From: Candidatus Omnitrophota bacterium
Lineage (GTDB): Bacteria > Omnitrophota > Gorgyraeia > Tantalellales > Tantalellaceae
NCBI GenBank assembly: GCA_035403965.1
Contig: DAONGE010000001.1
Coordinates: 85,008 to 149,007, forward strand
Direction of reading: 5' to 3'
Length of the DNA: 64,000 nucleotides
A program made the position numbers and the translations under genes. Positions 10,922 through 63,887 of the stretch are shown here, in pieces (the first letter of the stretch is position 1; each line of letters starts with the position of its first letter). Under the pieces are notes generated by a model that ran no database searches, was not told where the DNA came from, and saw nothing but the letters and a program-made list of their open reading frames with translations.

Positions 10922-11632
10922 ATGAAGATCGCCATTATGCAGCCGTATTTTTTTCCGTATCTGGGATATTTTAGTTTGATAAAACATACGGATCGGTTCA
11001 TCTTGCTGGATGAGGTTCAGTATATTCGTCACGGATGGATCGACAGGAACAGGATACTTAAACCTGGAGGAGGATGGCAGTATATCAAAGTTCCCGTAAG
11101 AAAGCACGCACGGGATACAAGTATCAAAAATATCAGGATCAATAATGATCTCGACTGGAGAACTAAAATGCTGGGGCAATTGCAGCATTATAAAAAGAAT
11201 GCTCCGAATTTCGCCCGGGTGGAAAAGATAATGGAAAAGGTATTGGTGAGTGAATATGATTCTATCGTTCAGCTAAATCTCGCCGGGCTTAAGGCGATCT
11301 GCGAATATTTAAAAATATATCCGGTTTTACAAATATTTTCCGAAGAGAGGTTTGCCATAGACCCCCCTAATGAACCGGATGAATGGGCGTTGAATATATG
11401 CAAAGCGATACCCGGCGTGAAAGAGTATTGGAATCCTCCCGGGGCACGGGATCTGTTCGATAGAAAAAAATATCGCTCCGGCTCGATAGAACTTAGGTTT
11501 CTCGAAAATCGTTTGCGCCGGTATGACCAAAAACGAACGGTTTTTGAGCCGGGTTTATCTATTATAGATGTTTTGATGTTCAATGACCCGGATCATGTAA
11601 ACTTAATGTTGGACGATTTTGTCCTTGATTGA
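10922..11632 (+). CDS. WbqC-like family protein (O-antigen/glycan cluster accessory protein)
   Basis: N-terminus MKIAIMQPYFFPYLGYFSLI...FILLDEVQY...DRNRIL...VPV matches the hallmark WbqC-like family N-terminal signature. Confidence 0.6.
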   Translation: MKIAIMQPYFFPYLGYFSLIKHTDRFILLDEVQYIRHGWIDRNRILKPGGGWQYIKVPVRKHARDTSIKNIRINNDLDWRTKMLGQLQHYKKNAPNFARVEKIMEKVLVSEYDSIVQLNLAGLKAICEYLKIYPVLQIFSEERFAIDPPNEPDEWALNICKAIPGVKEYWNPPGARDLFDRKKYRSGSIELRFLENRLRRYDQKRTVFEPGLSIIDVLMFNDPDHVNLMLDDFVLD

Positions 11633-11688
11633 CGCCGGGATTATTTTAATAATAGCAAGCGGGATAAATTGGAAAAGGTGGAGTAGCT

Positions 11689-12492: not shown

Positions 12493-12601
12493 CTCTAAAA
12501 TTTTGAGATATTGATCATTAAATTATGAATAGTGTGTTATGGCAAGGCAAATGCTAATTTGCGATAAATAAACAGATGAATGCGTAAATTTAAAATAGGA
12601 G

Positions 12602-45300: not shown

Positions 45301-47858
45301 TTACGGAGTGTGATATGGCTGACTGTGGTGGGATAGAGGTCTGTACATTGCGAACTGATAATAACGGTGTTGGTGAGGGGTTACTTCAGGCGCAGGGCAT
45401 GTTGATGGATCTCGGTAGACTTGGAGAATTGAGTATAGAAGAATTGGATCAATTGACAGACGAACAGATTTTGGAGTATCTTGGGGATGCTCCGGGGCGC
45501 GGTAATACGATATTACCTAAAGAGCTTAGTGCCAAGGGATATTTGCACGCATATGTGATCCTTTTAAAAATATATCAGGTAAAACAATTAAAGGCGTATC
45601 AAGCGACATCGGTGCGTTTAAGTCGTGTTCTTGACGCGCGTTTGACATCGGCTGAATATCTCAGGCAGTTCAGTTATGCCGTCAGCAGAAAAGAGACAAA
45701 GAAAAAGATAGGTGAGAAGATAAAGGAGTTGGAGGATATGCAGAGGGCAAGAAAGACGCTGTTGGCGCAGTTATTTACAAATCAAAAAGACGAACCAAGG
45801 GGGTATGCGATACGTAATATTGCGAAGGATGTTTTGTATGGACAGATAGAGTCAGCCCTGATGTTGTTTTTTACTTCGGCGTCATTCCAAGGAGCAGATG
45901 AAAATTTGAGTACCGTCGCAGAAATATTTGATAAATTGATAGAAGCGTATAAAGGCGATAAGGCTACGGGCGAGTATATTATCAGATTTTTAAAGGCTGT
46001 TATTGCGCAGAGCGTTAATATGGCCGAAGAAGACGAAAACCAGAAGAAGGTATCTCAAAATCTCCAGGTTTTGGCCGGCCAGACTTTGACCATAATTTCA
46101 TGGATGAAAGATGGCGTTCCAGAGGCTGAGAATATGCGTGTTTCAGCCGAAGAGAATAAAATGATCGCCAACGATAAATATGGAAAAGGTTTTATCAGTA
46201 TAGATACGAATGCCCTGCCGGTAGGATTGTCGCATACGCAGAAAGAAGGAAAGATAGGCCTTTTCTGGCGAGGTATCGAGAAAATAAAGAAATTAGCAGA
46301 TAATATTTGCAAGTTATTAATGATTGATGACAATATTTTTAAAAAGGCGAAAGAAAAAGTCGTTATGTATTTAATGGATCATGGCTTTATAAAAGTCCCG
46401 CACGGACTCAGAAAAGCTACTGATGACGGAGATGTCAGTACAATACATTATACTGCTTTTATTAATGACAAGTTGCCGGGTTTTGTTCAAACCACAAGTA
46501 CTGGTGCCGGGCATTTTCAGGCCGACAAATTAGATATTAAATATGTGCCCGAAGGAAAAGGGATACAAGTCTGCGTGCGATATGATATGTCCGGTAATAT
46601 CGTGGATAAGAAATGTTTTGAGGTTGAGGCCGGTGACTGGTGTGTGGCTTTGCCGGGCTACGTGGATTATTTTATAAATAAAGGAGGTCTTCGTTTCTAC
46701 GATTTTTCGATAAAGTTATCTCCTGAAATGGCAAAAAAATTTAACCCGCATATGGATTTTACGCCGGAAAACATAGCTGCTATGAAAAAGGTTGTTGAGG
46801 AACATGCTAGGGCCCCGTATTTAGGTGCTTTGATCGGTGGCCAATCATTTATTGTGAAGACAAGGCCGGAAGATGATAATAACACAGAATGGTTAAGCCT
46901 GACTGAGGAGATTCTTCCGGAGTTGGCTGCGAATTATTCGCTTGTAAAAATTTATGCCGAACAATTAACTTCGATGGAAAAATTGAACGCTTTTGTCGAA
47001 GGGTTTGCCGATGCTTATAATAAAAGTTTGGTATCCCCCAAAAAGGGACCTTCTAGCCCGTTGATCATCGAGGATGAAGCAAAAAAAATGATCGATTCGG
47101 AACAACCGGTTCCGGATAAGGGTTATATGGATAAAGTGGAAGGTGTACTGGCGTTTTTGGATGATAACGGTACTTTTATTAAAGAGCTTTTTGACGAAAA
47201 AACAGGACAGGATAAACTTATACGTGTATCTGTTGAATCGATAAGTTCGATAGGAAAGGAAAATGTAGTTGGATTTTTGCAGGCGATACAAACAGGCCGT
47301 GGATATGTAGAGCTTTTCTCGACTGAGAATCCGGGGGAGATCTCGGAAAATGTGTATAAAAATATGGGACTAGTTAAAAAGGCACTTCCGGCATCTCTTC
47401 AAGAAGGGAACAGAAGTAAATCCAATACGATCACCATTTTCCCGGTATTTAAAGGGGAGTCCTTGCCGGAGAGTTTGGTTAATGCCAGATGGGGTGTTGT
47501 CAAACCGGGCGAAACCATTATCGCGCCTGTCGGGTTTAACTATGACGCTGCGGGACTGGCGAGGAGTGTTATGCTTGGATTTCGGTTGTCGGAGATTGCC
47601 AGGAAGAATCTTGATAGTGACAGTCATTTCGTAGAATATACTTTAGCGCAGTACATGGACTTGTGCTTATCTCAAGGTGAAACGGCGGAAAATTTTGATC
47701 TGACGAAAGAAGATATCGTTAATATCGCCTTGGGGAATATTGATGTAATGGTCAGGTCTTTGAATAAATTAATAAGGTTACTTCCGATAATGCCGATCAA
47801 CGTTGAGCAGCTTCATGAGATATACGAGAGGGCCAGAGAGATTGCGATACGCGCGTAG
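42333..47858 (+). CDS. giant (1841 aa) signal-peptide protein with an embedded glycogen/starch-synthase-like GT-B glycosyltransferase domain
   Basis: N-terminus MFSSLKRYVSAIIIIVFTSTNSCYG is a signal peptide or anchor. Residues ~470-520 (VSPEIWHEAGGLARV...RQLEPHY) align by eye with the GT5 N-terminal KTGGLADV block. Residues ~975-1000 (EAAGFTECDMADCGG) align with the GT-B C-terminal E..FG....EAMA.G.P motif. The rest is of unknown function. Confidence 0.7.
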   Translation: MFSSLKRYVSAIIIIVFTSTNSCYGLDTSSLLNSQDISTDYRFGAKPLTPEGEAAQQVTSYSISFTALAEEIAKYYLGDVKGVKNAAGLRKVLREGFNVEESEQAIRLLEGQVFDLNDIKIENGIVSIKFEEKFKLKEALICKTSELYAYPAKDMTWSTIGEYSISIREYQEKGANGEKDFKGTYAPSTDPEILELIKRGQVVEVYPDSQTGHLKANRIKLTKDYAPIRTPADIYRGQDVDLRQLFTEKEIAKLENWIRSNYVRGSPVKFRVIMGDIALGWRDDVDHSIIGHAAVRDKAIYIGSLLLSEALKEENNSLWHSIIEEDELRHLRGLDHGDENAYKDRLNKVAGVVKDAQLVEIRQAMMNRDVYFIKGLLEKHISQNDTKSLLKTIFIANNSALSLYTAPLESRYPFKQAVALLSRDEQNKLLNALESEEAKEYRNLILVDEIFLMLVDNEFEYLKDWIKNNAANLEGRSIWEVSPEIWHEAGGLARVMQYHGAEMRALISESNIRFRQLEPHYQNRIDAFGNASPFDYRKDITHPIQSLEEVDSFYVNVGGREVKVVVSRGINDLGIEVYLIRDIQDDGTSYYTHSLYNYSDASPWGNHANIPTWEEFSVFYSKAALKFIERQENKERKTDLKWKAPVVHLNDSQVALVSVYAKIELDKEIEKAEKDNSYIVNPVLDDMVMCFTTHTYANRKEYSLEGGANDYSEGIMSFMDIPSKYRGLFVNYKQGGYRYDMASGGLRTADWQGAVARAHRDDVAIWDEWINDPYNDIANQLKAQVNGYDIEVNVTAVSNGDHRALTARYFRDILNKLFGSQVDVEQPTGEQIFGEKREAKKQLKLAKGTFYSTHDFEVDEEGMCTILDPNQMVITYSGRGVPEKVGMGMDFREYIVTGTDGRGAFDHYAIEEALKRGAQIVLYANVQTKHELSRRIQKDMIKFIDDMRSMKYPGRCIFVPRFSQDDQRKLLAASDVQVQDSYPKSEAAGFTECDMADCGGIEVCTLRTDNNGVGEGLLQAQGMLMDLGRLGELSIEELDQLTDEQILEYLGDAPGRGNTILPKELSAKGYLHAYVILLKIYQVKQLKAYQATSVRLSRVLDARLTSAEYLRQFSYAVSRKETKKKIGEKIKELEDMQRARKTLLAQLFTNQKDEPRGYAIRNIAKDVLYGQIESALMLFFTSASFQGADENLSTVAEIFDKLIEAYKGDKATGEYIIRFLKAVIAQSVNMAEEDENQKKVSQNLQVLAGQTLTIISWMKDGVPEAENMRVSAEENKMIANDKYGKGFISIDTNALPVGLSHTQKEGKIGLFWRGIEKIKKLADNICKLLMIDDNIFKKAKEKVVMYLMDHGFIKVPHGLRKATDDGDVSTIHYTAFINDKLPGFVQTTSTGAGHFQADKLDIKYVPEGKGIQVCVRYDMSGNIVDKKCFEVEAGDWCVALPGYVDYFINKGGLRFYDFSIKLSPEMAKKFNPHMDFTPENIAAMKKVVEEHARAPYLGALIGGQSFIVKTRPEDDNNTEWLSLTEEILPELAANYSLVKIYAEQLTSMEKLNAFVEGFADAYNKSLVSPKKGPSSPLIIEDEAKKMIDSEQPVPDKGYMDKVEGVLAFLDDNGTFIKELFDEKTGQDKLIRVSVESISSIGKENVVGFLQAIQTGRGYVELFSTENPGEISENVYKNMGLVKKALPASLQEGNRSKSNTITIFPVFKGESLPESLVNARWGVVKPGETIIAPVGFNYDAAGLARSVMLGFRLSEIARKNLDSDSHFVEYTLAQYMDLCLSQGETAENFDLTKEDIVNIALGNIDVMVRSLNKLIRLLPIMPINVEQLHEIYERAREIAIRA

Positions 47859-52954: not shown

Positions 52955-53719
52955 ATGTTGTTCAGATTCAGCAGGGTGCTTTGTACGGCATTGATTTTAA
53001 CGGCTTTTCATGAGGAACTATTTTCCGAGGAGTTCTCTGCTAGGGAAAACCATTCTATATCTCAGGTGAAAGAGATCGCGACAAAAATAATAAGACAAAT
53101 AGAGATACCAAAGGGATATCATGAGGGGCTTCTTCTTTCAGGTGGCGAGATATGGGTGAATAACGGAGAAGAAGGGGAAACATGGGTGATAGATGTTTCG
53201 ACTGGAACTAAACTTCGCGATATTAAACCGATAGGGAGTTTTTCTGAAGGAATATCATGGGTGTCCGGGAATAAATATTGGGTTACGGATTGGCGAGAAG
53301 GGGCATTGTATCTTGTGCATATTTCGGCCGATATTACGATCGCCGAAAAAGAGTACAGGCTGGGACAGATGTACCCCGCGGGTGTTGTGTGGACCGGGCA
53401 ATATATTTTCGTGATTTTGTGGGGCCGGGGGCCTGAAGGCACATACGATATCCTTAAAATGGACGGTGAAGGGAATATTATCCGGGTCGACAGGCTAAAG
53501 GAGATCAATGAACCGTCGCAGTTGACATGGGACGGGAAGAATCTATGGATAACCAGCTGGTGCGATAAAAAAGCGTACAAGCTGGATCCCGACACTTACG
53601 AAATACTGGGTTTTTTTGAGACACCGATGAATGACGCTACGGGGATAGCATGGGACGGGAAAAGTTTTTGGATAACGGGGACAAGGTCCGATTTGTATCA
53701 GGTAGAATTGGTCGAGTAG
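52955..53719 (+). CDS. secreted beta-propeller protein, glutaminyl-peptide cyclotransferase-like
   Basis: Signal peptide. YHEGLLLSGGEIWVNNG, FSEGISWVSGNKYWVTDW and GIAWDGKSFWITG resemble the bacterial/plant-type glutamine cyclotransferase five-bladed propeller family. Confidence 0.45.
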   Translation: MLFRFSRVLCTALILTAFHEELFSEEFSARENHSISQVKEIATKIIRQIEIPKGYHEGLLLSGGEIWVNNGEEGETWVIDVSTGTKLRDIKPIGSFSEGISWVSGNKYWVTDWREGALYLVHISADITIAEKEYRLGQMYPAGVVWTGQYIFVILWGRGPEGTYDILKMDGEGNIIRVDRLKEINEPSQLTWDGKNLWITSWCDKKAYKLDPDTYEILGFFETPMNDATGIAWDGKSFWITGTRSDLYQVELVE

Positions 53720-53933
53720 GGGTGGGGGAATTGTGCCAGAGTGTCATGTGTCAGGTGTCATGAAGCAGAAAACAAAATTGTCATTCCCGCATGTCTTTAG
53801 TGGGAATCTATGATATGAAATATTTTAATTTTACAGATCCCCGATAAAAGCGTTCGGGGATGACAGGGTTGAGAAATTCGAGATTCGAAATTCGATGATA
53901 ACGTAGGGGCGAACATCGTTCGCCCGAATCTTT

Positions 53934-53960
53934 GGCGGAGGCGGGTGTCCGCCTTTTTTA
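53934..53960 (+). terminator. putative rho-independent terminator
   Basis: GGCGG-aggcgggtgt-CCGCC followed by TTTTTTAA. Confidence 0.4.
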
Positions 53961-54016
53961 ATATGTGAGATGTTGATTAATTATAAAATAAATATTGATA
54001 AAAAGGAAATATACGA

Positions 54017-54394
54017 ATGAGTATGGATATTGGGAAAACAGAGAAAGCCGCGATAATGATACTGACGATCTTGTTGTTCGCCGGCACGGTTCTCTTTGCG
54101 GTGCGTCTCAGGGCCACTGAAAATAGAATAGAAGTTATAGAGGGGGGGATATCCCGCATGTTGTCATTGATTGAGGTGGAACGGATCCTGGACGAAAAAA
54201 GAAAAATTAATATGAATACCGCCTCGATAGCCGACATTGAACTATTGCCCGGAGTAGGTCCGGGACTTGCCCGACGTATTGTCGAATACAGGGAACTTGT
54301 CGGAAAATTCAGGTCACCCGAGGATCTAAAGTCGGTCAAAGGGATAGGAGAGAAAAAGCTTGAGGTAATACGGCCTTTTCTGAAGTTCCAATGA
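54017..54394 (+). CDS. comEA: competence protein ComEA (helix-hairpin-helix DNA-binding)
   Basis: N-terminal TM segment. The C-terminus INMNTASIADIELLPGVGPGLARRIVEYRE...GIGEKKLE has tandem HhH motifs typical of ComEA. Confidence 0.8.
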   Translation: MSMDIGKTEKAAIMILTILLFAGTVLFAVRLRATENRIEVIEGGISRMLSLIEVERILDEKRKINMNTASIADIELLPGVGPGLARRIVEYRELVGKFRSPEDLKSVKGIGEKKLEVIRPFLKFQ

Positions 54395-56805
54395 AAAAAT
54401 ATTTATTGATATGCCCGTTTATCTCTTTTCTGATGGGGATAATAGCGGTTAAATGTTTTTCGGTTTTCCGATGTCTGTCGGAGCCCCTGATGATCTTTTT
54501 GATCTTATCGGTGCTTATCGTTTTGCAGGTTGTTTTGTTTCGGATAAATAGATGGTTTTATCTGATCGTATGTACATCATTCTTTCTTTTAGGTTTTTCC
54601 AGATATATGGTCTCAATGGAATATGGAAGTGACCATATATCGCGGTATATTCACGATATACCGGAAAAAACTTTGATCTATGGTACGGTGTCGGGCTATC
54701 CCGAGATCAGAAAAGGCCGGTTTTCAGAATATCATGTTTTTCCTCTGACTGTCGATAAGATCGCGGTAAACGGTGAATTTGTCAGGGTTGAAGGAAAGAT
54801 CATGGTAAAACGATACGGTGTTTTTTCGATATCAGCGAGTGACAAGATCGTTATCGGGGGAGAGCTTGTGTCCCCTGCGAATGTTCGGAATCCGGGAGGG
54901 TTCGATCAGAGAGAATATATGCGTAGCGTTGGTATAAGCGGTGTTTTGCGTTCAAGGGATCTCGACCGGTATATGAAAGTCGGTACTTCAAATGCTTTTG
55001 CGATGGGGATCGTTCGAGTGCTGTTTTTCGCGCGTGAAAAAGCTAAAAAAATAGTGGAACAATATGTGCCCGATGATATGGCGCGAAGTATCATAGTTTC
55101 CATTATTATCGGCGCCAGAACTGACATCCCTCCTGAGCTGAATGATTTGTTCATAAGGACCGGGACTTTGCATATACTCGCGGTGAGCGGCCTCCACACA
55201 TGTATCGTTGGTCTTGTGCTGCTGTGGTGTCTGAGGGGCATAAATGTTCCGTGGAAAATGGTGTACATAATATCGTCGATGGGAGTGTGTCTTTACGCGG
55301 TGTTTACGGGATGGGCCCCGTCGAGCTTGCGCGCGGCGATAATGACATCATTAGCTTTTTTAACGAAGGCTATCGGGCGGAATGTCCCGTTGATACACGC
55401 ATTATTTTTGTCGGCGTTCATTATTTGCTTCGTCTCTCCAGGGCAACTTTTTCAGCCGGGTTTTATACTTTCATACGCGGCGGTGCTAGCTATTTTATGG
55501 CTTGTTCCGTACAGTGACAGGCTTTTAAATATTCCAAGCGAGAAAGTTACGGACCTGCCCGGGAAAATATGGGTTGGCGCGCGAAGGTCTTTCTCGTTGT
55601 CTCTTGCCGTGTGGATAGGCATGATGCCGATCATAGCTTTTTATTTTAATCTGGTAACGCCGGTCGTGGTTCTCGCTAACTTAATAGCTGTTCCAGTTTT
55701 TTTCGTTATTTTGATACTCGGAGGGGCACTTATTTGTGCGGGATCGATCGGTGTAATGAGTTTTCTGTCCGCCGCGTTAGGCACGGTAGTGGTTTGGGTG
55801 ATAAATTTTTTTATTTATTCATTGCGGATATTCGATAGTGTACCGTTCTCAAGTACGCAGATATCTTCCCCGGGAGCCGGTTTGATAGCGGCATATTATC
55901 TTTTACTGTGCGGGTGTGCCGTTATTTACGCCGGATCCGGTCGAAAAAGGATCGCTATAATCTTTATCCTTTTCGCGTGCAATCTTTTTTTATGGAAAGA
56001 AATTTTTGTTTCAGGCCCGCCTGAAAATACGAGGATCACCTTCTTTGACGTCGGGAAGGGGGATGCCGCGCTTATCGAAACGGCTAAAGGAGGGGTTGTG
56101 CTTATTGATGCGGGGCCCGGCGGTGAAAAGGGCGACGCGGGAAGGAACATTATAGCGCCGTACCTTCGGAAACATGGGATACGTTCCGTAGATTGTGTCG
56201 TTGTGACCCATCCGCATGACGATCATTATGGGGGCATGGACTACATCCTTGATAATTTCGATGTGGAGATGATGATATCCCCGCCTCAGGCGTTTGATGT
56301 GGATGGGGGATTCTCCGACATGGTCAACAAGGCGAAGAAGAAAAAAATATCATGTAAACCGGTTTCGGCCGGAGCTGTTGTTTCCGGTATCCCCGGGGTA
56401 GGTTTATACGTTTTGGGGCCGGATGGCAAAAAGAAGGATACGGGATATAATGAGATGTCGGTGGTGCTTAAGGCCGTGACAGATAAAGGCAATAGCGTTC
56501 TTTTTTGCGCAGATGTTATGGGTGAGGCTTTAAAGGATGTCGCGGGGTATCAGAAAATGCTTGTGTCGGATGTCGTAAAAATCCCGCATCACGGCGGGAA
56601 TGTAGGAGAGTTAAAGACGATAGAATATTTTCTGGAGACTACACAAAGTAAATATGTTGTGGTATCGAACAATGACAAGAAGTACGTCAATAAGGAGATC
56701 ATGCGTATTTTGTCTATGCAGGGGGCGGAGATCTGCACGACATATGAAAGAGGGGCGATTGTGTTCGAAGAAGGCGATAAACTAAAAGCGCGTCATTTTC
56801 GTTAA
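54391..56805 (+). CDS. comEC: DNA internalisation competence protein ComEC/Rec2 with a C-terminal metallo-beta-lactamase domain
   Basis: Polytopic competence domain (LHILAVSGLH). The C-terminus has VVVTHPHDDHYGG and FFDVGKGDA, a metallo-beta-lactamase fold. ATGA overlap with comEA. Confidence 0.85.
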   Translation: MKKYLLICPFISFLMGIIAVKCFSVFRCLSEPLMIFLILSVLIVLQVVLFRINRWFYLIVCTSFFLLGFSRYMVSMEYGSDHISRYIHDIPEKTLIYGTVSGYPEIRKGRFSEYHVFPLTVDKIAVNGEFVRVEGKIMVKRYGVFSISASDKIVIGGELVSPANVRNPGGFDQREYMRSVGISGVLRSRDLDRYMKVGTSNAFAMGIVRVLFFAREKAKKIVEQYVPDDMARSIIVSIIIGARTDIPPELNDLFIRTGTLHILAVSGLHTCIVGLVLLWCLRGINVPWKMVYIISSMGVCLYAVFTGWAPSSLRAAIMTSLAFLTKAIGRNVPLIHALFLSAFIICFVSPGQLFQPGFILSYAAVLAILWLVPYSDRLLNIPSEKVTDLPGKIWVGARRSFSLSLAVWIGMMPIIAFYFNLVTPVVVLANLIAVPVFFVILILGGALICAGSIGVMSFLSAALGTVVVWVINFFIYSLRIFDSVPFSSTQISSPGAGLIAAYYLLLCGCAVIYAGSGRKRIAIIFILFACNLFLWKEIFVSGPPENTRITFFDVGKGDAALIETAKGGVVLIDAGPGGEKGDAGRNIIAPYLRKHGIRSVDCVVVTHPHDDHYGGMDYILDNFDVEMMISPPQAFDVDGGFSDMVNKAKKKKISCKPVSAGAVVSGIPGVGLYVLGPDGKKKDTGYNEMSVVLKAVTDKGNSVLFCADVMGEALKDVAGYQKMLVSDVVKIPHHGGNVGELKTIEYFLETTQSKYVVVSNNDKKYVNKEIMRILSMQGAEICTTYERGAIVFEEGDKLKARHFR

Positions 56806-56809: not shown

Positions 56810-57150
56810 GCTGTTGGATTGAATTGTCATATTCGATCACTTCGGAGAAGTTTGTGTTCTTTCTTCCGGGTATTTCCCTCCGACTGTTCGGAAGTTCTGC
56901 GCCCTTTAGAAAAATACCCTGTTATTTTTGATCTCCAGGCGTTTGATGCTTCGCTGAAGCGTAAAATATTTTTATCTTTTGCGGGTATTTTTCTCAAGTG
57001 CTCGAACTTCCAAACAGGCGGATTGTGGGAAAAGTGTTTTAAGGTGCATGTATTTTTCTGTTCTTTTCAAAATAGTCATAAACTTCTCCGGGAAATCGTA
57101 TTCACTCCATTCCTTCTCGTTTCGCCAAGTCAACTAATGGGTGATTACTT
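56810..57150. repeat. mosaic intergenic repeat locus 3
   Basis: gagaagtttgtgttctttc (56850-56868) is the reverse complement of the module found at 35957 and 41508. gactgttcggaagttctgcgccctttagaaaaataccc... (56883-57010) is near-identical to 41165-41295. gtcataaacttctccgggaaatcgtattcactcca (57077-57111). ORF 56819-57211 is spurious. Confidence 0.6.
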
Positions 57151-57358
57151 CCATAGCTATGCAGAAAGAACAAATGGATCAACATTTACTGGTGTGAAAA
57201 GATGCGCATGATAAGGTTCTGATCTGACATTCGTGTCGGATTTGGTGGCATTTTTTAAATTGCATGAGATGGTTGACTGGGTATTTTTTATGTGATAACC
57301 TAACTTTTGAATAAAAACTGTAATATATAGTAAACATATGTGTTTATAGGAGGATAAT

Positions 57359-58153
57359 ATGAGAAGAAGTTTTTTGATGTGGATCGTCGCTGTGGCGGTT
57401 ATGTTCATCGGGATCATTAAGGCGGAAGCCGGTGTTGACGCCGAATTCGAGGCGGCCATTATTTCCGTAAATGGCGATGTTCAGATCGATATGAAAGCCG
57501 ATAATAACTGGGTACAGGCTAAGGTCGGTATGAGGCTTAAGGTAGGGGCTAAACTTAAAACAGGACGGGGATCCGAAGCGGATATCGTGTATGACGCTGA
57601 GGGTTTAAACGTAGTTAACATTAAATCTGAAAGTGAGATAGTCATAAGATCATCGGAGATGGATCTGCCGGAAGGCGCGGTGCTTGTAAAATTCGATAAT
57701 TTGAAAAAAGGATCGCAATTCGTTGTTAAAACCCCGATTGCGGCCTGCGCTATAAGGGGTTCCGGTATGGGGATTGAACATATTGCTGAGATAACTGAAG
57801 TTTACGCGTTCGAAGACAAGGTATATGTCACGGGTTTTGATAAGAACGGGACCCAGGTGTCGGCGCAAGTGACCGTTCCCGAGGCATGGATGGTTCAGGT
57901 AAGAGGAGGCAATATTACCCCTCCCTCCGAATTTGACGAAAGGGAACGTGGAATATGGGATAAGTGGGTGACGAAGGTTACAAAGGGGGCCGGCTCTAAG
58001 AGCGATCAAGCGGGAAATAAGAAAAAAGATCTAAATAAAATTGAGAAAGACGCCGCAGATGAGAACGAAATATTGGATACGAAAGATATAGCGGATAAAA
58101 AGGGAGGCACGTCACCACAACCCGAGATCAGTCCGTCGGGACACGACAAATAA
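57359..58153 (+). CDS. secreted FecR-domain-like protein carrying a conserved C-terminal tail shared with the next two genes
   Basis: Signal peptide MRRSFLMWIVAVAVMFIGIIKAEA. FecR-like beta region (AKVGMRLKVGAKLKTGRGSEADIVYDAEGLNVVNIKSES). The C-terminus is DENEILDTKDIADKKGGTSPQPEISPSGHDK. Confidence 0.55.
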   Translation: MRRSFLMWIVAVAVMFIGIIKAEAGVDAEFEAAIISVNGDVQIDMKADNNWVQAKVGMRLKVGAKLKTGRGSEADIVYDAEGLNVVNIKSESEIVIRSSEMDLPEGAVLVKFDNLKKGSQFVVKTPIAACAIRGSGMGIEHIAEITEVYAFEDKVYVTGFDKNGTQVSAQVTVPEAWMVQVRGGNITPPSEFDERERGIWDKWVTKVTKGAGSKSDQAGNKKKDLNKIEKDAADENEILDTKDIADKKGGTSPQPEISPSGHDK

Positions 58154-58332
58154 AAATACAGGGTGGTCACAGTATAGCGCATAGTTTGAATTGTTAACGG
58201 CGGAATGATGGAAAAACTGAAGAATTGTTTGTTGAATCCCGTGTTTACGTGTAAGATAATCTGCGGACTTTGTGTAGTAAAATTCGGATAGACGCGTGCA
58301 TGGTAAAACAAAATAAGAGGGAAAAGGACTAT

Positions 58333-60096
58333 ATGAAAAAAATAACCGTGGCTTTGATCTTCTTTTTTCTGGCGAATGTAATTTATTTTACTACCGGGAG
58401 CGTTACTGCGTATGCGGTGGATGAATCAAATTCACGCGATGCGGCTACTGCGAAAACTACGCTTAAGAGATCAGCGATGGCGGCGGAAGCGCTGAAGCAT
58501 TTGGGAGATACTGAGAAGTATGATCCGAGTGCCGCGTACCAGGGAACAGGTGGTAAAGCGGCAGCAGATAAAGCGGCAGCAGATAAAGCGGCAGCAGATA
58601 AAGCGGCAGCAGGTGAATCAAGTATATCCGAGTTTGCCAAGATGAAGAAAGCGGAGGCGGCGGCAGTGAAAAAGCAGATTGAAAACTATAGTAAAAGAGA
58701 GGATACGATTGATTACGGTGCAAACTTGACTCAGGCGAATTCCTCGGCACTTAAAAGGCCGACGGGTGCAACCTTTAGAGACAAGTATAAAGACTATACC
58801 GCCGAGACCCAAGATAAAGGGGAAAAGGCCTCCCAAGCGGGCTTTTATGAGGGAACAAAACAAGGATCCGGTTACAGTAAGCCAAAGACAGAGGCTTCCA
58901 AAACACAGATAATGCTAAACAATGTGGGTAAAGCACCTGAGGCGGCGCAGGAGAGAAATTTGACAGACGCGAAACAATTGATCGTTGGAAACGCCACAGC
59001 GGGAAAAACGGCAGCGGATAAAGCAGCAGCAGATAAGGCAGCAGCGGAAAAAGCGGCAGCTGAAAAAGCCGCTGCTCAGAAGGCAGCCACTGACGCAAAA
59101 GCTCTAGCGGCGGAAAAACAGGCTGCGGCGGAAAAAGCCGCGGTTTTGGCGGCAAAAGCCGCCGCTGACGCAAAATCTGCCACCGTGATAAGGGAACATG
59201 CGGATAGAAGATTAAGCGGAACAAAAAGTGCAGTCGAAAAGGCGAAAAAAGAAGGGATTCCTTCGGGTACACAAAATACCATGGACGATGTTGTGAAAGT
59301 AAGAGAGAAATACAAACAGGAAAAGTCTACAGAAGAGAACGCGGCGAAAAAAGCCGCAGAAGACGCGGCAAAAGCGGCGGAAGCAGCTGAAAAAGAGGCA
59401 AGGGAAGCGGCGGAAAAAGCCGCGGAATTAGAGAAAGCCGCCGGAATATCGTCGGGGGATAAAACGGTAAGTCAGGCTGAAGAAGAAGCCAAAAAAGCAA
59501 AAAATTCCGTCGCCGCTGCGAAAAAGGCGCTAGAAAAAGCGATAGAAAAAGTAAAAACAAATAAAGCGGACGCCGAGACAAACTCGCTTGAAATAGAAGC
59601 AGCGAAAAAGACAGCGGATGATTTTGAAAAAAGGGCGGAAGATTATGCCAGAGAGGCGCAAAGGCTGAAAGAAGAAGCTGAAAAGAAAAAAGGAACTAGT
59701 GATGAAGCAGCTGCTAAACGGCGAGCAGATCTGGCAGCACAGGAAGCGGATAGAGTAGCTAAAGAAACTGCCGGACCGAAACAAAAGGTGAAAGATCATA
59801 TGGTCAAAGCCGCATCCTTGGACCGCGCGATAAAATCAGCGGAAGAAGAAATAGAAAAAGCGGCAAAGGCTTTATCAGCTGCGAAAGCCGCAGCGGCGGC
59901 GGCGGATAGGGCGGTAGCTGACGCCACCGAGCGCGAAAAAGCGACATCGAAAAATAACGATAAGGGGGAAAATCAATCCGCTAATAACGATCTAAAGTCT
60001 CTGAAAGATGACATGGCGAATGATAACGAGATATTGGATACAAAAGATATACAGGCGCAAAAACAGGCACAAAACGAGATAAGTCCGTCACGATAA
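58333..60096 (+). CDS. secreted Ala/Lys/Glu-rich low-complexity protein (predicted long alpha-helical; TolA-domain-II-like composition) with the conserved C-terminal tail
   Basis: Ribosome-binding site GAGGGAAAAGG precedes ATG 58333. Signal peptide MKKITVALIFFFLANVIYFTTGSVTAYA. Contains (AADKA)n and EKAAKEAAE repeats. It ends DDMANDNEILDTKDIQAQKQAQNEISPSR. The ORF track's upstream start at 58270 was rejected. Confidence 0.6.
   Translation: MKKITVALIFFFLANVIYFTTGSVTAYAVDESNSRDAATAKTTLKRSAMAAEALKHLGDTEKYDPSAAYQGTGGKAAADKAAADKAAADKAAAGESSISEFAKMKKAEAAAVKKQIENYSKREDTIDYGANLTQANSSALKRPTGATFRDKYKDYTAETQDKGEKASQAGFYEGTKQGSGYSKPKTEASKTQIMLNNVGKAPEAAQERNLTDAKQLIVGNATAGKTAADKAAADKAAAEKAAAEKAAAQKAATDAKALAAEKQAAAEKAAVLAAKAAADAKSATVIREHADRRLSGTKSAVEKAKKEGIPSGTQNTMDDVVKVREKYKQEKSTEENAAKKAAEDAAKAAEAAEKEAREAAEKAAELEKAAGISSGDKTVSQAEEEAKKAKNSVAAAKKALEKAIEKVKTNKADAETNSLEIEAAKKTADDFEKRAEDYAREAQRLKEEAEKKKGTSDEAAAKRRADLAAQEADRVAKETAGPKQKVKDHMVKAASLDRAIKSAEEEIEKAAKALSAAKAAAAAADRAVADATEREKATSKNNDKGENQSANNDLKSLKDDMANDNEILDTKDIQAQKQAQNEISPSR
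58556..58611 (+). repeat. tandem 15-nt coding repeat (aaagcggcagcagat x ~3.7) encoding (AADKA)n
   Basis: Direct inspection. Similar imperfect 15-nt arrays lie at 59010-59060 and 60913-61003. Confidence 0.7.
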
Positions 60097-60241
60097 AGGA
60101 TATGGTTTTAAAAGACGAGGGAACGAATAATTATACGTTTTAATTTTGATATGCGGAATAATGTGTGGTACTGTTGTAAAGATATTCTGACGGAAAGGAA
60201 GCGGTGAAGATGAATCTTTGCAACAACAATTTGAGGAGCTT

Positions 60242-61975
60242 ATGAAAAAACTTACCATTAGCATTGCCTGTTTTTTTCTGATGAACATTATATGTTGTAC
60301 GGCTTCGGATGTCAGTGTGGCCGATGAATCAAAAAATATAATCACTCCGGGGAATTCTAACTTGACAACAGGATCAGGGACAGGCGCGGCATCAAAAGAC
60401 GAGACAAAAAAAGGAGCTTCTGGCGCAAATGTTCGCGCGGGTGCAGGCGCAGGTGGATCCGCAGCTGCTGGACTAACAAGTGGAAAGCTTGCAGGCATTT
60501 CCAGTGGAGTAGCCGCAGTAGCTGCTGGAATAGCCGCAGCGTCTGGAGCCGGAGGAGGTGGTGGAGTAGTACCATCATCAGGAGCAGGTGCGAAATCAAC
60601 CGCTGCAGCGGATAAAGCGGTAATAGCCGCAGCCGCAGCAGCAGTAACAGTATCAGATCAAGCGGCAACGTATAAAGCAGCAGCGGGTGTATCTGATCAA
60701 AACGATGGGGCTACTACGAAAACTACGTCTCAGAAATCAGCGGCGGCGGAGGCAGCACTGAATCAGCTGAAAAATTTTGGTAAAGATAAGAAAAAATATG
60801 ATCCAGGTGCCGCCTTGACTAAGGCGGATTCCTCGGCAATAAAAAATGCGTTGGGTTCAACTGATGCGAAACAACAAGCCTTTAGTACCAAGTACCAGCA
60901 ACCAGGTGAGAAGTCGGCAGCAGAAAAAGCAGCAGCGGATAAAGCGGCGGCAGATAAGGCAGCAGCAGATAAAGCCGCGGCAGATAAAGCAGCCGCAGAG
61001 AAGTATTCAGCCGCGGAAAAAGCCGTAGTAGAGAAGGCTAAAGCTTCTGTCGCGTTAACCGCGGCGGAAAAGGCGCAAGCCGAGGCGGAAAGCGAATTGA
61101 AGAAATTGGAAAGTATGGACTCCGCAACGCGATTTCTACTCTTTGGTGTAGCTAGGGAGGGGGATCAAAAATATAAGGGAGCTCTAAAAGAAGCGGAAGC
61201 GAAAGTTGCCGCGGCAAAAGAGGCGACAGAGAAAGCTGAAAAGACGGCAGAGGAAACTAAAGAAGCGGCGGATAAAGCTGAAAAAGAGGCGATAGACGCC
61301 GCTAAAGCGGTAAAAGCCCTTACAGTCGGGGCTACAGGAGAAAAAACAGCGACGGAAAAAGCGGCAGCGGCGGAAAAAGCGAAAAAGGAAGTTAGCGAAG
61401 CAAAAGACAATGTTAAGGCGACGGAAAAAGCCGCCGCTTTGGCGGTAGAAAAAGCAGCCGAAGCCGTGGCAAAAATAAAAGCGAATAAAAAAGCGGCGGA
61501 AGAAGCCAAGTTAGCGGCAGAACAAAAGACAAACGATGCAAAGGAAATAGCAAGAAAGTTAGAGGCGGCAAAAGAAGTTAAGGAAAAAGAAAATAAAAGA
61601 GGGAACACCAATCGTGCAACCGATCTGGTGATCACAAGGAATACAGCATCCCTTGAAGAGTATAAAGCAGAAGCAAAAAAATTCCAGCAGGAAGAGGCTG
61701 ATAGGTTAGCGGAGATAAAAAAATTAGAAGCAGAGGCAAAATTAGCTGAAGAAGAAGCCGAAAAAGCGGCATTAGCGGCATTGTCGGCAAGAAAGGTGTT
61801 AGCTGACAAATCATATGAGGCAGAAAGAGCGGAAGAAGCCGCGAAAGGTACGTCAAGTAAAACAGGTTCGGCGGATAAAGACCTAAAGTCTTTGGAAGAA
61901 GACATGGCGAATGATAACGAGATATTGGATACAAAAGATATACAGGCACAAAAAGAGATAAGTCCGTCACGATAA
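60242..61975 (+). CDS. secreted Gly/Ala-rich then Ala/Lys/Glu-rich low-complexity protein, paralog of 58333-60096, with the conserved C-terminal tail
   Basis: Ribosome-binding site GAGGAG precedes ATG 60242. Signal peptide MKKLTISIACFFLMNIICCTAS. Shares KKYDP.AA and (AADKA)n with the upstream paralog. It ends EEDMANDNEILDTKDIQAQKEISPSR. Confidence 0.6.
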   Translation: MKKLTISIACFFLMNIICCTASDVSVADESKNIITPGNSNLTTGSGTGAASKDETKKGASGANVRAGAGAGGSAAAGLTSGKLAGISSGVAAVAAGIAAASGAGGGGGVVPSSGAGAKSTAAADKAVIAAAAAAVTVSDQAATYKAAAGVSDQNDGATTKTTSQKSAAAEAALNQLKNFGKDKKKYDPGAALTKADSSAIKNALGSTDAKQQAFSTKYQQPGEKSAAEKAAADKAAADKAAADKAAADKAAAEKYSAAEKAVVEKAKASVALTAAEKAQAEAESELKKLESMDSATRFLLFGVAREGDQKYKGALKEAEAKVAAAKEATEKAEKTAEETKEAADKAEKEAIDAAKAVKALTVGATGEKTATEKAAAAEKAKKEVSEAKDNVKATEKAAALAVEKAAEAVAKIKANKKAAEEAKLAAEQKTNDAKEIARKLEAAKEVKEKENKRGNTNRATDLVITRNTASLEEYKAEAKKFQQEEADRLAEIKKLEAEAKLAEEEAEKAALAALSARKVLADKSYEAERAEEAAKGTSSKTGSADKDLKSLEEDMANDNEILDTKDIQAQKEISPSR

Positions 61976-61997
61976 AAATAAAAGGGAGCCAAGACTA

Positions 61998-63161
61998 ATG
62001 AGAAAATATCTAATCAGATCAGTTGTCGCGTTGATAGTGGGGATAGGCATGATCTCGCCTGATACCGGTTTCGCATGGGAAAAGGGCGCGGTCAAGGTTG
62101 ATTCTTTCTTTAAAACACAGGAACAGTGGGACAGTAACGTTTTCTACGATCATGACGACCCGCAACACGATTTTATAACGATACTTACGCCCGGGATAGC
62201 CGGTGAATATGGTTTTGGGGTGGGGAAAAAACATAAAATTTGGACAAAATATCTTTGTGAAATGGGTATCTTTGGAAAATATGATGAGCAGAACTATGGA
62301 AACCATGATGCTCAAGGCGGCATATTCCTGGATATGGACAAATATACGGTCGATGTGAATAACCGTTTTCAGTTCACTTCAGACAGGGCCGGCACGGAGT
62401 TTGAAAACAGAACCTTGCGAAAAATAGATACATTGAACGCCGTTGTGGGGTGGAATTTCAATAAATTCAGTTTTGATACGGGCTACCAATTTTATATTGT
62501 GAATTTTTTAAGCGATGTTCTTGATGGTTTCAATAGATATGAGAACACGGGTTTTATTACCGGCTATATCGAGATAGCTCCAAAGACCAAAGGCCTTTTG
62601 GAGTTCACTTATACAAATTTGCAATATCCCGACGCCAGCGGTAGGAATGGTAACGCGTACAGGGGTATGGCCGGTGTAAAAGGTGACATAACGGCCAAAC
62701 TGACGGGTATCGCCAAAGCGGGTTATAAGTACAAAGCGTATGAGAATTCTACGATGGAAGATTATTCAAACGCGGCGGCAGAGATCGCCCTTGTATACGC
62801 CATCAACGACAAAATGGATACCACGTTTTCTTATACAAGGGAACCGTTCGAGTCGACGTATAGCAACAACAACTATTACATCGGTGACCATTTTCTTGGC
62901 GCTTATAATTACAGGTTCGGGAACGGTTTTTTATTTAAGACGGAAGGCATGTATTTCCATAACGATTATCCGAATGTGGGATCAGGCGAAACTAAAAAAA
63001 GACGGGATGACGAATGGGCCGTTGGCCCCCGGCTTGAATACGCCTGGAAAGAGTGGATAGTGGTAGGGATTGAGTATAAATTCCATCAGAGACATTCGAC
63101 TATTACCTTGCGTACTTATGATGAGAACGTTGTAAGCAGCGATGTGATGTTTAAGTTCTAA
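61998..63161 (+). CDS. putative outer-membrane beta-barrel protein
   Basis: Signal peptide MRKYLIRSVVALIVGIGMISPDTGFA. Alternating hydrophobic/polar strands rich in Y/F/G/N. The C-terminal residue is Phe (…DVMFKF), typical of OMP beta-barrels. It follows the stop of the preceding gene by 22 nt. Confidence 0.5.
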   Translation: MRKYLIRSVVALIVGIGMISPDTGFAWEKGAVKVDSFFKTQEQWDSNVFYDHDDPQHDFITILTPGIAGEYGFGVGKKHKIWTKYLCEMGIFGKYDEQNYGNHDAQGGIFLDMDKYTVDVNNRFQFTSDRAGTEFENRTLRKIDTLNAVVGWNFNKFSFDTGYQFYIVNFLSDVLDGFNRYENTGFITGYIEIAPKTKGLLEFTYTNLQYPDASGRNGNAYRGMAGVKGDITAKLTGIAKAGYKYKAYENSTMEDYSNAAAEIALVYAINDKMDTTFSYTREPFESTYSNNNYYIGDHFLGAYNYRFGNGFLFKTEGMYFHNDYPNVGSGETKKRRDDEWAVGPRLEYAWKEWIVVGIEYKFHQRHSTITLRTYDENVVSSDVMFKF

Positions 63162-63269: not shown

Positions 63270-63887
63270 ATGATGCTGAAAAAACTGTGTTTTATCACAA
63301 AAGCGGCGATGTTTTTTGCGATCGTAACGGCATGTAACTGTGTGTATTGCGATACGTCCGGGAACAACTCCAAAGTAAAAGTATCGGATGATTACCAAAT
63401 AGGGCCGGAGAATGTGCTGGTCATAGATGTGTATTATGGGAAGGATATGAACCTTTCCCGTAAGGTACGAGTTTCGCCGTCCGGAAAAATGAACTTTCCA
63501 CTTCTTGGCGAAGTAGAAGTGAAAGGGTTGACTGTATCTTCCTTGGAGAATAAACTTCGTGAGCTTCTTGAAAAAGACTATCTTGTAAATCCGCAGGTTT
63601 CCGTATTTATCGAAGAATACAGCAATGTTTCGATCCTGGGACAGGTAAATAAACCCGGGGTATATCCCCTAAAAGGGAAGATGACCGTAATAGAACTTAT
63701 TTCTCTTGCCGGTGGATTCACTAAAATAGCCGCTCCGAACGATGTTAAGGTAATACGCACGAACGATGACGGTTCGAAAGCTGCGATCAACGTCAAGGCG
63801 AACGATATAATAAACGGCGGTAAACAGGAAGAAGATGTGATTGTCAAAGCCGGGGATATAGTTACTGTCCCGGAAAGTTTTTTCTAA
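63270..63887 (+). CDS. polysaccharide biosynthesis/export protein (Wza/EpsE-like: Poly_export plus SLBB domains), probable lipoprotein
   Basis: NPQVSVFIEEYSNVSILGQVNKPGVYPLKGKMTVIELISLAGGFT is the Poly_export/SLBB signature. A lipobox-like VTAC lies near the N-terminus. A downstream alternative start at 63309 is possible. Confidence 0.7.
   Translation: MMLKKLCFITKAAMFFAIVTACNCVYCDTSGNNSKVKVSDDYQIGPENVLVIDVYYGKDMNLSRKVRVSPSGKMNFPLLGEVEVKGLTVSSLENKLRELLEKDYLVNPQVSVFIEEYSNVSILGQVNKPGVYPLKGKMTVIELISLAGGFTKIAAPNDVKVIRTNDDGSKAAINVKANDIINGGKQEEDVIVKAGDIVTVPESFF

What the first reader, a model, noticed from the sequence alone, without database searches (positions are those of the whole stretch)
57359..61975. 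Three consecutive secreted proteins share a conserved non-hydrophobic C-terminal tail (…NEILDTKDI…EISPS): candidate novel sorting/recognition tag
Seen in sequence:
- All three ORFs have N-terminal signal peptides and end with a homologous ~30-aa segment: DAADENEILDTKDIADKKGGTSPQPEISPSGHDK / DDMANDNEILDTKDIQAQKQAQNEISPSR / EEDMANDNEILDTKDIQAQKEISPSR. In the latter two, DLKSL precedes the tail.
- The tail has no TM helix, so it is not PEP-CTERM/LPXTG-like. It is acidic then basic, and I do not recognise it as any described sorting domain.
- Protein 1 has a FecR-like beta-domain.
- Proteins 2 and 3 are 600-aa Ala/Lys/Glu-rich proteins with (AADKA)n arrays, a composition like the long helical domain II of TolA. 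They are paralogs at their N-termini too (…KKYDP.AA…).
- The trio sits immediately upstream of an outer-membrane beta-barrel, a Wza-like exporter and a Wzz-like gene.

Inference: a shared C-terminal tag is recognised by a dedicated protease, secretion component or anchoring partner (possibly the adjacent beta-barrel). It delivers fibrous helical proteins to the cell surface or matrix alongside exopolysaccharide. This is potentially an undescribed envelope/matrix system.
Basis: partly seen in the sequence, partly recalled or inferred. Interest (0 to 1): 0.8.

Follow-up and report, generated by a model that had tools for sequence, protein, structure and literature searches.

The report
Conserved tail on polysaccharide-export accessory proteins
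Three neighbouring secreted proteins of an uncultured Omnitrophota bacterium do share a conserved, non-hydrophobic end-piece, but it belongs to one protein family that always sits beside a sugar-polymer export pore and was copied locally onto two orphan helical proteins, so it looks like a docking motif for that export machine and not a new genome-wide sorting signal.

Summary
P1 (57359-58153), P2 (58333-60096) and P3 (60242-61975) have signal-peptide-like N-termini and share a C-terminal tail with two conserved boxes, [ILV]D-x-KD[LI][DE] and E[IV]SPS.

The tail is older than this genome. Of 17 P1 orthologues (39-51% identity) from other Omnitrophota, 16 keep both boxes and one keeps a degenerate form. 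The boxes are conserved about as well as the folded domain, inside a poorly conserved acidic linker, and their codons vary synonymously.

In 11 lineages P1 lies between ComEC and a BBP2_2 beta-barrel, and where the contig extends it is followed by a short OPX ending in ESFF, a PCP-kinase and Wzy_C. This matches a Class-3 OPX/Wzp polysaccharide export locus.

P2 and P3 exist only in this strain cluster, have no detectable homologues, are mostly long helices, and share only their last ~45-50 residues with P1.

I found no other carrier family, no TM segment and no sortase- or exosortase-like gene nearby. My tail searches were insensitive and did not cover the whole genome.

Best reading (confidence ~0.4): a docking motif that tethers its carriers to the export machinery. 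A PEP-CTERM-style sorting system is not supported. The function is untested.

The parts
57359..58153 (+). P1: secreted FecR-fold protein (264 aa). It has a signal peptide, beta-domains (~30-172), a conserved IWDxWV helix (~194-208), an acidic disordered linker and the tail.
58052..58153 (+). P1 tail: DAADENEILDTKDIADKKGGTSPQPEISPSGHDK (box 1 ILDTKDI, box 2 EISPS, then a 4-residue extension).
   Evidence: Column information is 2.97 bits (box 1) and 3.32 bits (box 2), against 1.82 bits in the linker and 3.14 bits in the folded domain.
58333..60096 (+). P2: orphan 587-aa secreted Ala/Lys/Glu-rich protein. The N-terminal ~200 residues are low-confidence or disordered and include a (KAAAD)n array. 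Residues 203-581 form five long helices, followed by DLKSL and the tail.
   Evidence: pLDDT >=90 over most of 230-540. No homologues beyond itself. Two-unit repeat polymorphism between strains.
60007..60096 (+). P2 tail: DDMANDNEILDTKDIQAQKQAQNEISPSR.
60242..61975 (+). P3: a 577-aa paralogue of P2 with a Gly/Ala/Ser-rich N-terminal region, an (AADKA)n array, a helical Ala/Lys/Glu-rich body, DLKSL and the tail.
61898..61975 (+). P3 tail: EDMANDNEILDTKDIQAQKEISPSR (short form).
61998..63161 (+). BBP2_2 outer-membrane beta-barrel (387 aa). It has a signal peptide, a conserved mature N-terminus AWExG..K and a C-terminal Phe. It is the Wzp-like porin candidate and is adjacent to P1 in the other lineages.
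   Evidence: Pfam PF10082 at E 1.9e-15, with weak EpsL/TIGR03016 matches. Synteny. Termini.
63270..63887 (+). Short OPX (205 aa; Poly_export plus SLBB, with no room for Wza domains D3-D4) ending in VPESFF.
   Evidence: The ESFF terminus is found in all 7 orthologues examined. Published S-F-F docking motif of WzaB (PMC12819527).

Best explanation
The tail is a bipartite short linear motif, [ILV]-D-x-K-D-[LI]-[DE] followed after 3-15 residues by E-[IV]-S-P-S. It lies at the end of an acidic, disordered linker.

It is ancestral to one family of secreted FecR-fold proteins (P1). In a clade of Omnitrophota, the P1 gene lies immediately upstream of the beta-barrel porin of a Class-3 OPX (Wzx/Wzy-dependent) polysaccharide export locus.

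In the window's strain cluster, two paralogous orphan proteins made of long helices (P2, P3) lie between P1 and the barrel. They carry a copy of the last ~45-50 codons of P1.

The most likely function is a docking peptide. It would hold its carrier on a shared periplasmic or outer-membrane partner of the export machinery (porin, OPX or PCP), so that P1, and here also P2 and P3, are recruited to the site of polymer export.

It is probably not a cleaved sorting signal handled by a dedicated enzyme.

Shown: motif conservation, selection at the peptide level, synteny, absence of a TM segment, absence of a nearby sorting enzyme, the orphan status and helical nature of P2/P3, and the fold of P1.

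Inferred: the docking function and the identity of the partner.
For: 1. Conservation. Of 17 orthologues at 39-51% identity, 16 keep both boxes and P0008 keeps a degenerate form, ISNE. The boxes carry 3.0-3.3 bits per column against 1.8 in the linker.
2. Peptide-level selection. Codons of both boxes differ synonymously among 7 lineages. P1 versus P3 tail gives dS ~2.5 and dN 0.38.
3. Fixed neighbourhood. ComEC-P1-barrel is seen in 11 lineages, followed by OPX, PCP-kinase and Wzy_C wherever the contig extends that far. P3 ends 22 nt before the barrel gene, and no + strand terminator-like site lies between P1 and the barrel.
4. Precedent in this machinery. WzaB binds WzpB through its C-terminal S-F-F (PMC12819527), and all 7 OPX orthologues examined end in ESFF.
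6. Structurally unrelated proteins in the same operon carry the tail (P2/P3), and a full P1 duplicate in L021 keeps it.
7. Extensions after ISPS are tolerated, as expected for an internal linear motif.
Against: - No direct evidence of binding, and no co-variation or complex model could be computed.
- The partner is unidentified.
- Adjacency in a compact genome can persist without physical interaction, and ComEA/ComEC are just as syntenic.
- The P2 and P3 tails may have been homogenised by gene conversion, so they count as one event.
- The P1 model has low overall confidence (mean pLDDT 55.6).
- The invariant Ser in box 2 would fit a modification site equally well.
- Myxococcal Class-3 OPX systems work without any P1-like component (PMC9601211; 'FecR' occurs 0 times in its text).
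Confidence: 0.4

Rival explanations
1. Glycan-acceptor tag. The invariant Ser of the ISPS box, in a disordered segment of periplasmic proteins, would be O-glycosylated by a Wzy_C-family ligase or oligosaccharyltransferase encoded in the locus. This would covalently link a repeat unit or polymer to P1/P2/P3, acting as a protein anchor or primer for the exopolysaccharide.
For: - The first Ser of box 2 is the only invariant tail residue in 19 tails.
- One Wzy_C protein is conserved in every locus that extends that far, and a second one (438 aa) occurs only in the lineage that also has P2/P3.
- All known O-linking OTases contain Wzy_C. TfpO/TfpM act on C-terminal Ser/Thr, and PglL acts on Ser in disordered, low-complexity segments (PMC9829042).
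- An Und-PP-linked repeat-unit pathway (Bac_transf, Wzx) is present.
Against: - The Wzy_C proteins match only the core PF04932 domain, with no PglL_A or Wzy_C_2 match. A Wzx/Wzy pathway needs a polymerase anyway, which the conserved Wzy_C protein could be.
- The terminal residue is variable (R, S, Q, E, N, A, K, G, Y), unlike TfpO/TfpM acceptors.
- The carriers are not pilin-like.
- Box 1, which is equally conserved, has no counterpart in known sequons.
Confidence: 0.17
2. One reading: a true sorting or secretion tag recognised by a dedicated protease or secretion component (for example the adjacent barrel), which exports the carriers to the cell surface or matrix.
For: - N-terminal signal peptides combined with a shared C-terminal motif on unrelated proteins.
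- An adjacent outer-membrane barrel.
- The acidic, disordered tail (mean net charge -9 over the last 45 residues of the 18 P1-family proteins) could thread a channel built for anionic polymers.
- The RIN-like N-terminal domain of P1 resembles the periplasmic stopper of adhesins that remain threaded through an outer-membrane pore.
Against: - Only one family plus one local derivative carries the tag.
- No dedicated enzyme lies nearby.
- No TM segment or basic anchor.
- The motif is not strictly terminal.
- Folded ~100-residue helices in P2/P3 are unlikely to pass a polysaccharide porin.
- The barrel already has a well-supported role as the OPX partner.
Confidence: 0.12
3. No shared function. The tail has a P1-specific role (for example intramolecular regulation, folding or stability). 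Its presence on P2/P3 is a by-product of a partial duplication of the P1 3' end that created fast-evolving, possibly dispensable, low-complexity genes.
For: - P2/P3 are restricted to one strain cluster and have no homologues.
- P2 varies in repeat number between near-identical strains.
- The homology with P1 extends beyond the motif to ~45-50 residues, as expected from a DNA duplication.
- P2 and P3 tails are nearly identical in DNA.
- The locus is prone to duplication (L021).
Against: - Since the duplication, synonymous sites have saturated (dS >1), yet both boxes remain identical while the flanks and spacer diverged.
- P2 and P3 are intact ~580-aa ORFs with signal peptides and ribosome-binding sites, and are identical or nearly so across five assemblies.
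- The P2 helical body is modelled with high confidence.
Confidence: 0.25

Closest known systems
C-terminal S-F-F docking motif of Class-3 OPX proteins (M. xanthus WzaB binding porin WzpB; PMC12819527)
   Same: A short C-terminal linear motif on a periplasmic protein of the same kind of export locus. The OPX encoded here ends in ESFF.
   Different: The P1/P2/P3 tail is acidic and bipartite with a Ser-Pro-Ser box, is not aromatic, tolerates C-terminal extensions, and its partner is unknown.
Composite short-OPX/beta-barrel translocons (EpsY/EpsX, WzaB/WzpB; PMC9601211, PMC9603273)
   Same: A short Poly_export/SLBB OPX, an adjacent beta-barrel and a PCP tyrosine kinase, together with Wzy_C, Wzx and Bac_transf.
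   Different: The myxobacterial systems have no FecR-fold accessory protein or helical tail carriers. The gene order differs (barrel upstream of OPX here). Most OPX orthologues in this clade lack a lipobox.
PEP-CTERM/exosortase and related C-terminal sorting signals
   Same: Signal peptide plus a conserved C-terminal motif, encoded in an EPS locus whose OPX, PCP and barrel give weak matches to PEP-CTERM-associated models.
   Different: No TM helix or basic cluster, no exosortase found nearby, and one carrier family instead of many.
FecR/PupR C-terminal cell-surface signalling domain and the RIN retention module of RTX adhesins (5ix9)
   Different: P1 has no cytoplasmic anti-sigma domain or TM anchor, is not part of a giant T1SS adhesin, and has an acidic tail with the two conserved boxes.
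TfpO/TfpM/PglL O-glycosylation sequons
   Same: A conserved Ser near the C-terminus of periplasmic proteins, encoded beside Wzy_C-domain proteins.
   Different: The acceptors are not pilins, the terminal residue is not a conserved Ser/Thr, and the enzymes lack PglL-specific accessory domains.
TolA domain II and (EAAAK)n-type long helices
   Same: Ala/Lys/Glu/Asp-rich composition and long predicted helices in P2/P3.
   Different: No TolA N-terminal anchor or C-terminal domain III, no Pfam match, and no significant structural neighbour.

Membership tests
PEP-CTERM-type (exosortase) sorting signal | C-terminal motif followed by a hydrophobic TM helix and a basic cluster | tested here: not met
   No hydrophobic 19-mer near the C-terminus. 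The last 40 residues have mean Kyte-Doolittle values of -1.2 to -1.4. No NCBIfam or Pfam sorting-domain match.
PEP-CTERM-type (exosortase) sorting signal | Dedicated sorting enzyme (exosortase, sortase or rhombosortase) co-occurring in the genome | tested here: inconclusive
   None found among the called genes within ~10 kb upstream and ~17 kb downstream of P1 here, nor in 10 orthologous loci. The rest of the genome could not be examined.
PEP-CTERM-type (exosortase) sorting signal | Tag carried by many unrelated proteins per genome | tested here: not met
   Only P1-family proteins and P2/P3 were found in 64 kb plus ~20 kb of flanks and in all fetched loci. The short-form DNA pattern found only P1 orthologues in two public collections. 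Limits: only the short form was searched, the collections are incomplete, and the whole genome was not available.
Class-3 OPX / Wzp composite translocon (downstream genes) | Short OPX with Poly_export plus SLBB and no outer-membrane-spanning C-terminal domain | tested here: met
   205 aa, with PF02563 at 38-114 and SLBB at 119-200. Best NCBIfam matches are pepcterm_export, EpsE and EpsY, all below their cut-offs.
Class-3 OPX / Wzp composite translocon (downstream genes) | C-terminal Phe-Phe motif of the OPX | tested here: met
   ESFF terminus in 7/7 orthologues examined. The motif is defined in PMC12819527.
Class-3 OPX / Wzp composite translocon (downstream genes) | Adjacent 18-stranded beta-barrel porin | tested here: inconclusive
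   The adjacent BBP2_2 barrel scores E 1.9e-15 and has a C-terminal Phe.
Class-3 OPX / Wzp composite translocon (downstream genes) | PCP with tyrosine kinase, plus Wzx/Wzy-pathway genes | tested here: met
   Wzz + GNVR + AAA_31 protein, with TIGR01007 at 180.7 bits (above its cut-off). Wzy_C, Bac_transf and Polysacc_synt are present.
FecR domain family (PF04773), for P1 | Match to the FecR domain model and fold | tested here: met
FecR-type anti-sigma factors | Cytoplasmic anti-sigma domain and a TM anchor N-terminal to the FecR domain | tested here: not met
   P1 begins with a cleavable signal-peptide-like segment directly followed by the beta-domain.
TolA | N-terminal TM anchor, helical domain II and C-terminal domain III | tested here: not met
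   No Pfam or NCBIfam match in P2/P3. Only the composition and helicity resemble domain II. The best Foldseek E-value was 0.33.
TfpO/TfpM-type C-terminal O-glycosylation acceptors | Ser/Thr as the C-terminal residue of a pilin-like acceptor encoded next to its OTase | tested here: not met
   Terminal residues are R, S, Q, E, N, A, K, G and Y. The carriers are not pilins. Criteria come from PMC9829042.
PglL-type general O-OTase system | OTase with Wzy_C plus PglL_A/Wzy_C_2 features, and Ser acceptors in disordered segments | tested here: inconclusive
   Wzy_C is present but no accessory-domain match. The acceptor-like Ser lies in a disordered region. Glycosylation itself cannot be tested with these tools.

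The most novel reading that the evidence does not exclude
The two-box acidic tail is a previously undescribed recruitment tag of Class-3 OPX polysaccharide export machines in Omnitrophota. It would attach structurally unrelated envelope proteins (a FecR/RIN-like 'stopper' protein and long helical rods) to the Wzp porin/OPX complex. It could do this by docking, by threading the anionic tail into the polymer channel, or by covalent glycan attachment at the invariant Ser. This would define a new accessory module that couples proteins to exopolysaccharide export.
Probability: 0.3. Interest if true: 0.6.

Novelty: new variant of a known kind. Interest (0 to 1): 0.42.

Why it matters
Class-3 OPX/porin translocons are described as the most widespread polysaccharide export systems (PMC12819527 abstract), and their assembly rules have only recently been worked out. 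This Omnitrophota clade has a conserved extra periplasmic component beside the porin gene. It carries a selectively maintained linear motif that has been transplanted onto other proteins.

If the motif is a docking or modification tag, it would show how proteins are coupled to exopolysaccharide export in an uncultured, possibly host-dependent phylum. It would also give a portable peptide handle for that machinery.

If not, the case still shows that a shared tail on adjacent genes can arise from local 3'-end duplication and does not by itself indicate a sorting system.

Tried and rejected
1. Tail-profile search of the 5.8-billion-protein word index. The extended alignment A3 gave 1233 candidates, none at E<=10, so the motif is too short for that database size.
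2. Exhaustive HMMER search with the tail profile against 1.84 billion representatives. It returned only P2 itself (E 1.6e-5). Known P1 tails were not recovered, so this negative result says little.
Only the short form could be scanned.
4. Genome and metagenome pattern scans gave 1 and 3 hits. Three are P1 orthologues and one is a chance match in a 75-aa ORF. The scans missed JGI contigs known to carry P3 (L002), so those collections are incomplete.
5. The search for P2/P3 homologues returned only (AAEKA)n low-complexity matches without a tail.
6. BLASTP with composition correction found no P2-P3 alignment. The paralogy only appears with the correction switched off or with MAFFT.
7. An RNA or DNA element explanation for the conserved 3' end is rejected because the codons vary synonymously.
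8. PDZ- or carboxylate-type recognition, and Lpp-like C-terminal Lys cross-linking, are rejected because the terminal residue varies and extensions are tolerated.
9. The TolA reading is rejected as membership and kept only as a compositional analogy.
10. A fused tail-barrel structure prediction was not attempted.
Full report
**Observation**

The three ORFs are present as described. The window comes from a Candidatus Omnitrophota MAG, going by the source name of the identical protein P0001.

Likely true starts follow Shine-Dalgarno-like sequences:
- P1: ATG 57359
- P2: ATG 58333
- P3: ATG 60242

Each product has one N-terminal hydrophobic segment with an AxA-like cleavage site and a hydrophilic C-terminus.

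The tails read DAADENEILDTKDIADKKGGTSPQPEISPSGHDK, DDMANDNEILDTKDIQAQKQAQNEISPSR and EDMANDNEILDTKDIQAQKEISPSR. BLASTP aligns only the last ~40-50 residues of P1 with P2 and P3 (E 8e-7 and 9e-9). No other copy exists in the 64-kb window.

P2 and P3 are full-length paralogues once composition correction is switched off (32% identity over 661 columns). Their tails are almost identical in DNA. That pair therefore counts as one event, possibly homogenised by gene conversion.

**The tail is older than this genome**

P1 has 17 homologues at 39-51% identity, all from metagenomes or Omnitrophota MAGs. Sixteen of them end with the same two boxes, [ILV]-D-x-K-D-[LI]-[DE] and E-[IV]-S-P-S, separated by 3-15 residues. 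P0008 keeps a degenerate form, ISNE.

| P1 region | Information per alignment column |
|---|---|
| Box 1 | 2.97 bits |
| Box 2 | 3.32 bits |
| Folded beta-domain | 3.14 bits |
| Acidic linker before the boxes | 1.82 bits |

The last 45 residues have a mean net charge of -9.2.

Across seven lineages the box codons differ freely at synonymous positions, including AGY/TCN serine switches. Selection therefore acts on the peptide and not on an RNA or DNA element.

Between P1 and P3 the alignable 45 codons are 61.5% identical in DNA, with dS ~2.5 (saturated) and dN 0.38. The sharing is old, and the boxes have been held constant while the flanks drifted.

Three variants continue after ISPS with a Gly-led extension: window P1 (GHDK), P0004/P0005 (GSGSTSYSYSVGY) and an L021 paralogue (GSSSGGGQSLVVG). 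A free carboxy-terminus at that position is therefore not required.

**Context**

Eleven independent lineages were examined: the window, L007, L009, L011, L013, L015, L016 and L021-L024. In all of them P1 lies directly downstream of ComEC and upstream of a BBP2_2 beta-barrel. ComEA and a Glu_cyclase_2-like gene precede ComEC wherever the contig extends that far.

Where the contig continues downstream, the next genes are a ~200-aa Poly_export/SLBB protein, a Wzz-GNVR-tyrosine-kinase PCP, a Wzy_C protein and a 160-aa unknown. Further downstream in this genome come a second Wzy_C, glycosyltransferases, Bac_transf and a Wzx flippase.

This is the architecture described for composite short-OPX/beta-barrel translocons (PMC9601211; PMC9603273, listed). 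In M. xanthus the OPX WzaB binds its porin WzpB through the C-terminal Ser-Phe-Phe (PMC12819527). All seven OPX orthologues examined here end in ESFF. The barrel thus has a well-supported role as the polysaccharide porin.

The gene tables for these neighbourhoods list no exosortase, sortase, rhombosortase or PDZ-protease family. A TPR/Peptidase_MA_2 protein lies ~8 kb upstream in this genome only.

**Who carries the tail**

Searches for other carriers found none:
- **Profile searches.** They were too insensitive. Nothing scored at E<=10 in the word index. The exhaustive scan returned only P2 itself and did not recover even the known P1 tails.
- **DNA pattern scan.** A degenerate pattern for the short form had zero matches in window shuffles. 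It found one locus in 596 Gb of species-representative genomes and three loci in JGI metagenomes. Three of the four are P1 orthologues next to the barrel, and one is a chance hit in a 75-aa ORF.
- **Relaxed regex.** Over all fetched loci (255 kb, plus the loci scanned) it found only P1-family proteins and P2/P3.
- **P2/P3 homologues.** None are detectable. The only other hits are (AAEKA)n low-complexity matches without a tail.

In the other lineages P1 abuts the barrel, so P2 and P3 are an insertion specific to this strain cluster. L021 shows an independent duplication of the whole P1 gene that keeps the tail. The locus therefore tends to duplicate P1 or its 3' end.

Limits of these searches: only the short form could be scanned in public collections, those collections miss contigs known to carry the tail, and only ~84 kb of this genome was visible.

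**The proteins**

- **P2.** The N-terminal ~200 residues are low-confidence. Residues 203-581 form five long helices, with pLDDT >=90 over most of 230-540. The tail has lower confidence (block means 47-66). There is no significant PDB neighbour (best E 0.33). TolA is only a compositional analogy.
- **Strain variation.** P2's (KAAAD)n array differs by two units between near-identical strains, while P3 is invariant.

**Interpretation**

The inference that the tail is functional and linked to the adjacent envelope genes is supported. The specific analogy with PEP-CTERM-like sorting is not supported, because I found:
- one carrier family plus one local derivative;
- no TM segment;
- no partner enzyme nearby;
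- no requirement for a terminal position.

I favour a docking motif that recruits its carriers to a shared partner in the Class-3 OPX machinery (confidence ~0.4). Four points support this: the fixed P1-barrel adjacency, the precedent of the OPX S-F-F tail, the channel-engaging relatives of P1's fold, and the retention of both boxes on unrelated proteins in the same operon.

Rivals:
- A relic of 3'-end duplication with a P1-specific role (~0.25).
- An O-glycan acceptor tag at the invariant Ser, served by a Wzy_C-family enzyme (~0.17; lead from PMC9829042, with no specific support).
- A true export or sorting signal through the barrel (~0.12).

None of these can be separated without experiments or complex modelling.

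**Novelty and score**

The export locus is a known kind. The P1 family with its two-box tail, and its transfer to orphan helical proteins, is not covered by Pfam or NCBIfam models. I found nothing describing it in the literature searches I ran.

I rate it a new variant of a known kind, with moderate interest (0.42). It is a concrete, testable lead for an accessory component of Class-3 OPX translocons in an uncultured phylum. It is phyletically narrow, and its mechanism is unproven.

Noticed in passing
window 63270-63887; L007 12074-12679; L009 13324-13905; L011 4845-5471; L021 11814-12506; L022 8203-8796; L023 4120-4746: All seven OPX orthologues end in (P/G)ESFF. This is the same S-F-F terminus shown experimentally to dock M. 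xanthus WzaB on its porin WzpB, so the motif extends to Omnitrophota.
   Followed up: yes
window 63270-63370 and the OPX N-termini in L007, L009, L011 and L021: Only the window-lineage OPX has a lipobox-like VTAC. The other lineages have no Cys in the N-terminal region, although WzaB oligomerisation depends on lipidation in M. xanthus. These OPX proteins may need another way to associate with the outer membrane.
   Followed up: partly
window 58554-58612 (P2 KAAAD array); L001/L005 versus L002/L004/L006: The 15-nt tandem array differs by exactly two units (10 aa) between otherwise near-identical strains, while P3 is invariant.
   Followed up: yes
L021 ~10980-11772: A second full-length P1 paralogue sits between the barrel and the OPX. 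It keeps the tail and adds a 12-residue Gly-led extension (DISPSGSSSGGGQSLVVG).
   Followed up: partly
L017 14481-15797 (about 4.5 kb beyond the window end): A second Wzy_C-domain gene (438 aa) is present in the window lineage but was not seen in the stretches examined of L007, L009, L011, L022 or L023. This is the same lineage that has P2/P3. Its size falls in the range of TfpM-type O-OTases, but it has no specific domain support.
   Followed up: partly
window 52955-56805 and the orthologous loci: A Glu_cyclase_2-like gene, ComEA and ComEC are conserved immediately upstream of P1 wherever the contigs reach that far. Whether this is functional linkage or just conserved gene order is unknown.
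   Followed up: no
window 58001-62000: Extreme AT skew (0.39-0.42, against about 0.05 elsewhere), caused by the purine-rich Ala/Lys/Glu codons of P2 and P3.
   Followed up: yes
window 42333-47858: A 1841-aa ORF with only a weak Glyco_transf_5 (starch synthase-like) match at residues 479-666. The rest is unannotated.
   Followed up: no
window 7272-13699: A separate sugar-modification cluster: three radical SAM genes, Formyl_trans_N, PS_pyruv_trans, WbqC and DegT aminotransferase. It lies ~45 kb upstream of the export locus.
   Followed up: no
window 56819-57211: A 130-aa ORF, called as a 119-aa gene in some assemblies, lies in the ComEC-P1 spacer. It has no recorded family hit and follows a terminator-like hairpin at 56946-56962. 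It is probably not a gene, and the spacer is more likely the P1 promoter and leader.
   Followed up: partly
barrel N-termini: window 61998-62130, L007, L009, L011, L013, L015, L016: After the signal peptide, the barrels share a conserved mature N-terminus, AWE-x-G-x-x-K-[VIL]. Its role is unknown.
   Followed up: no
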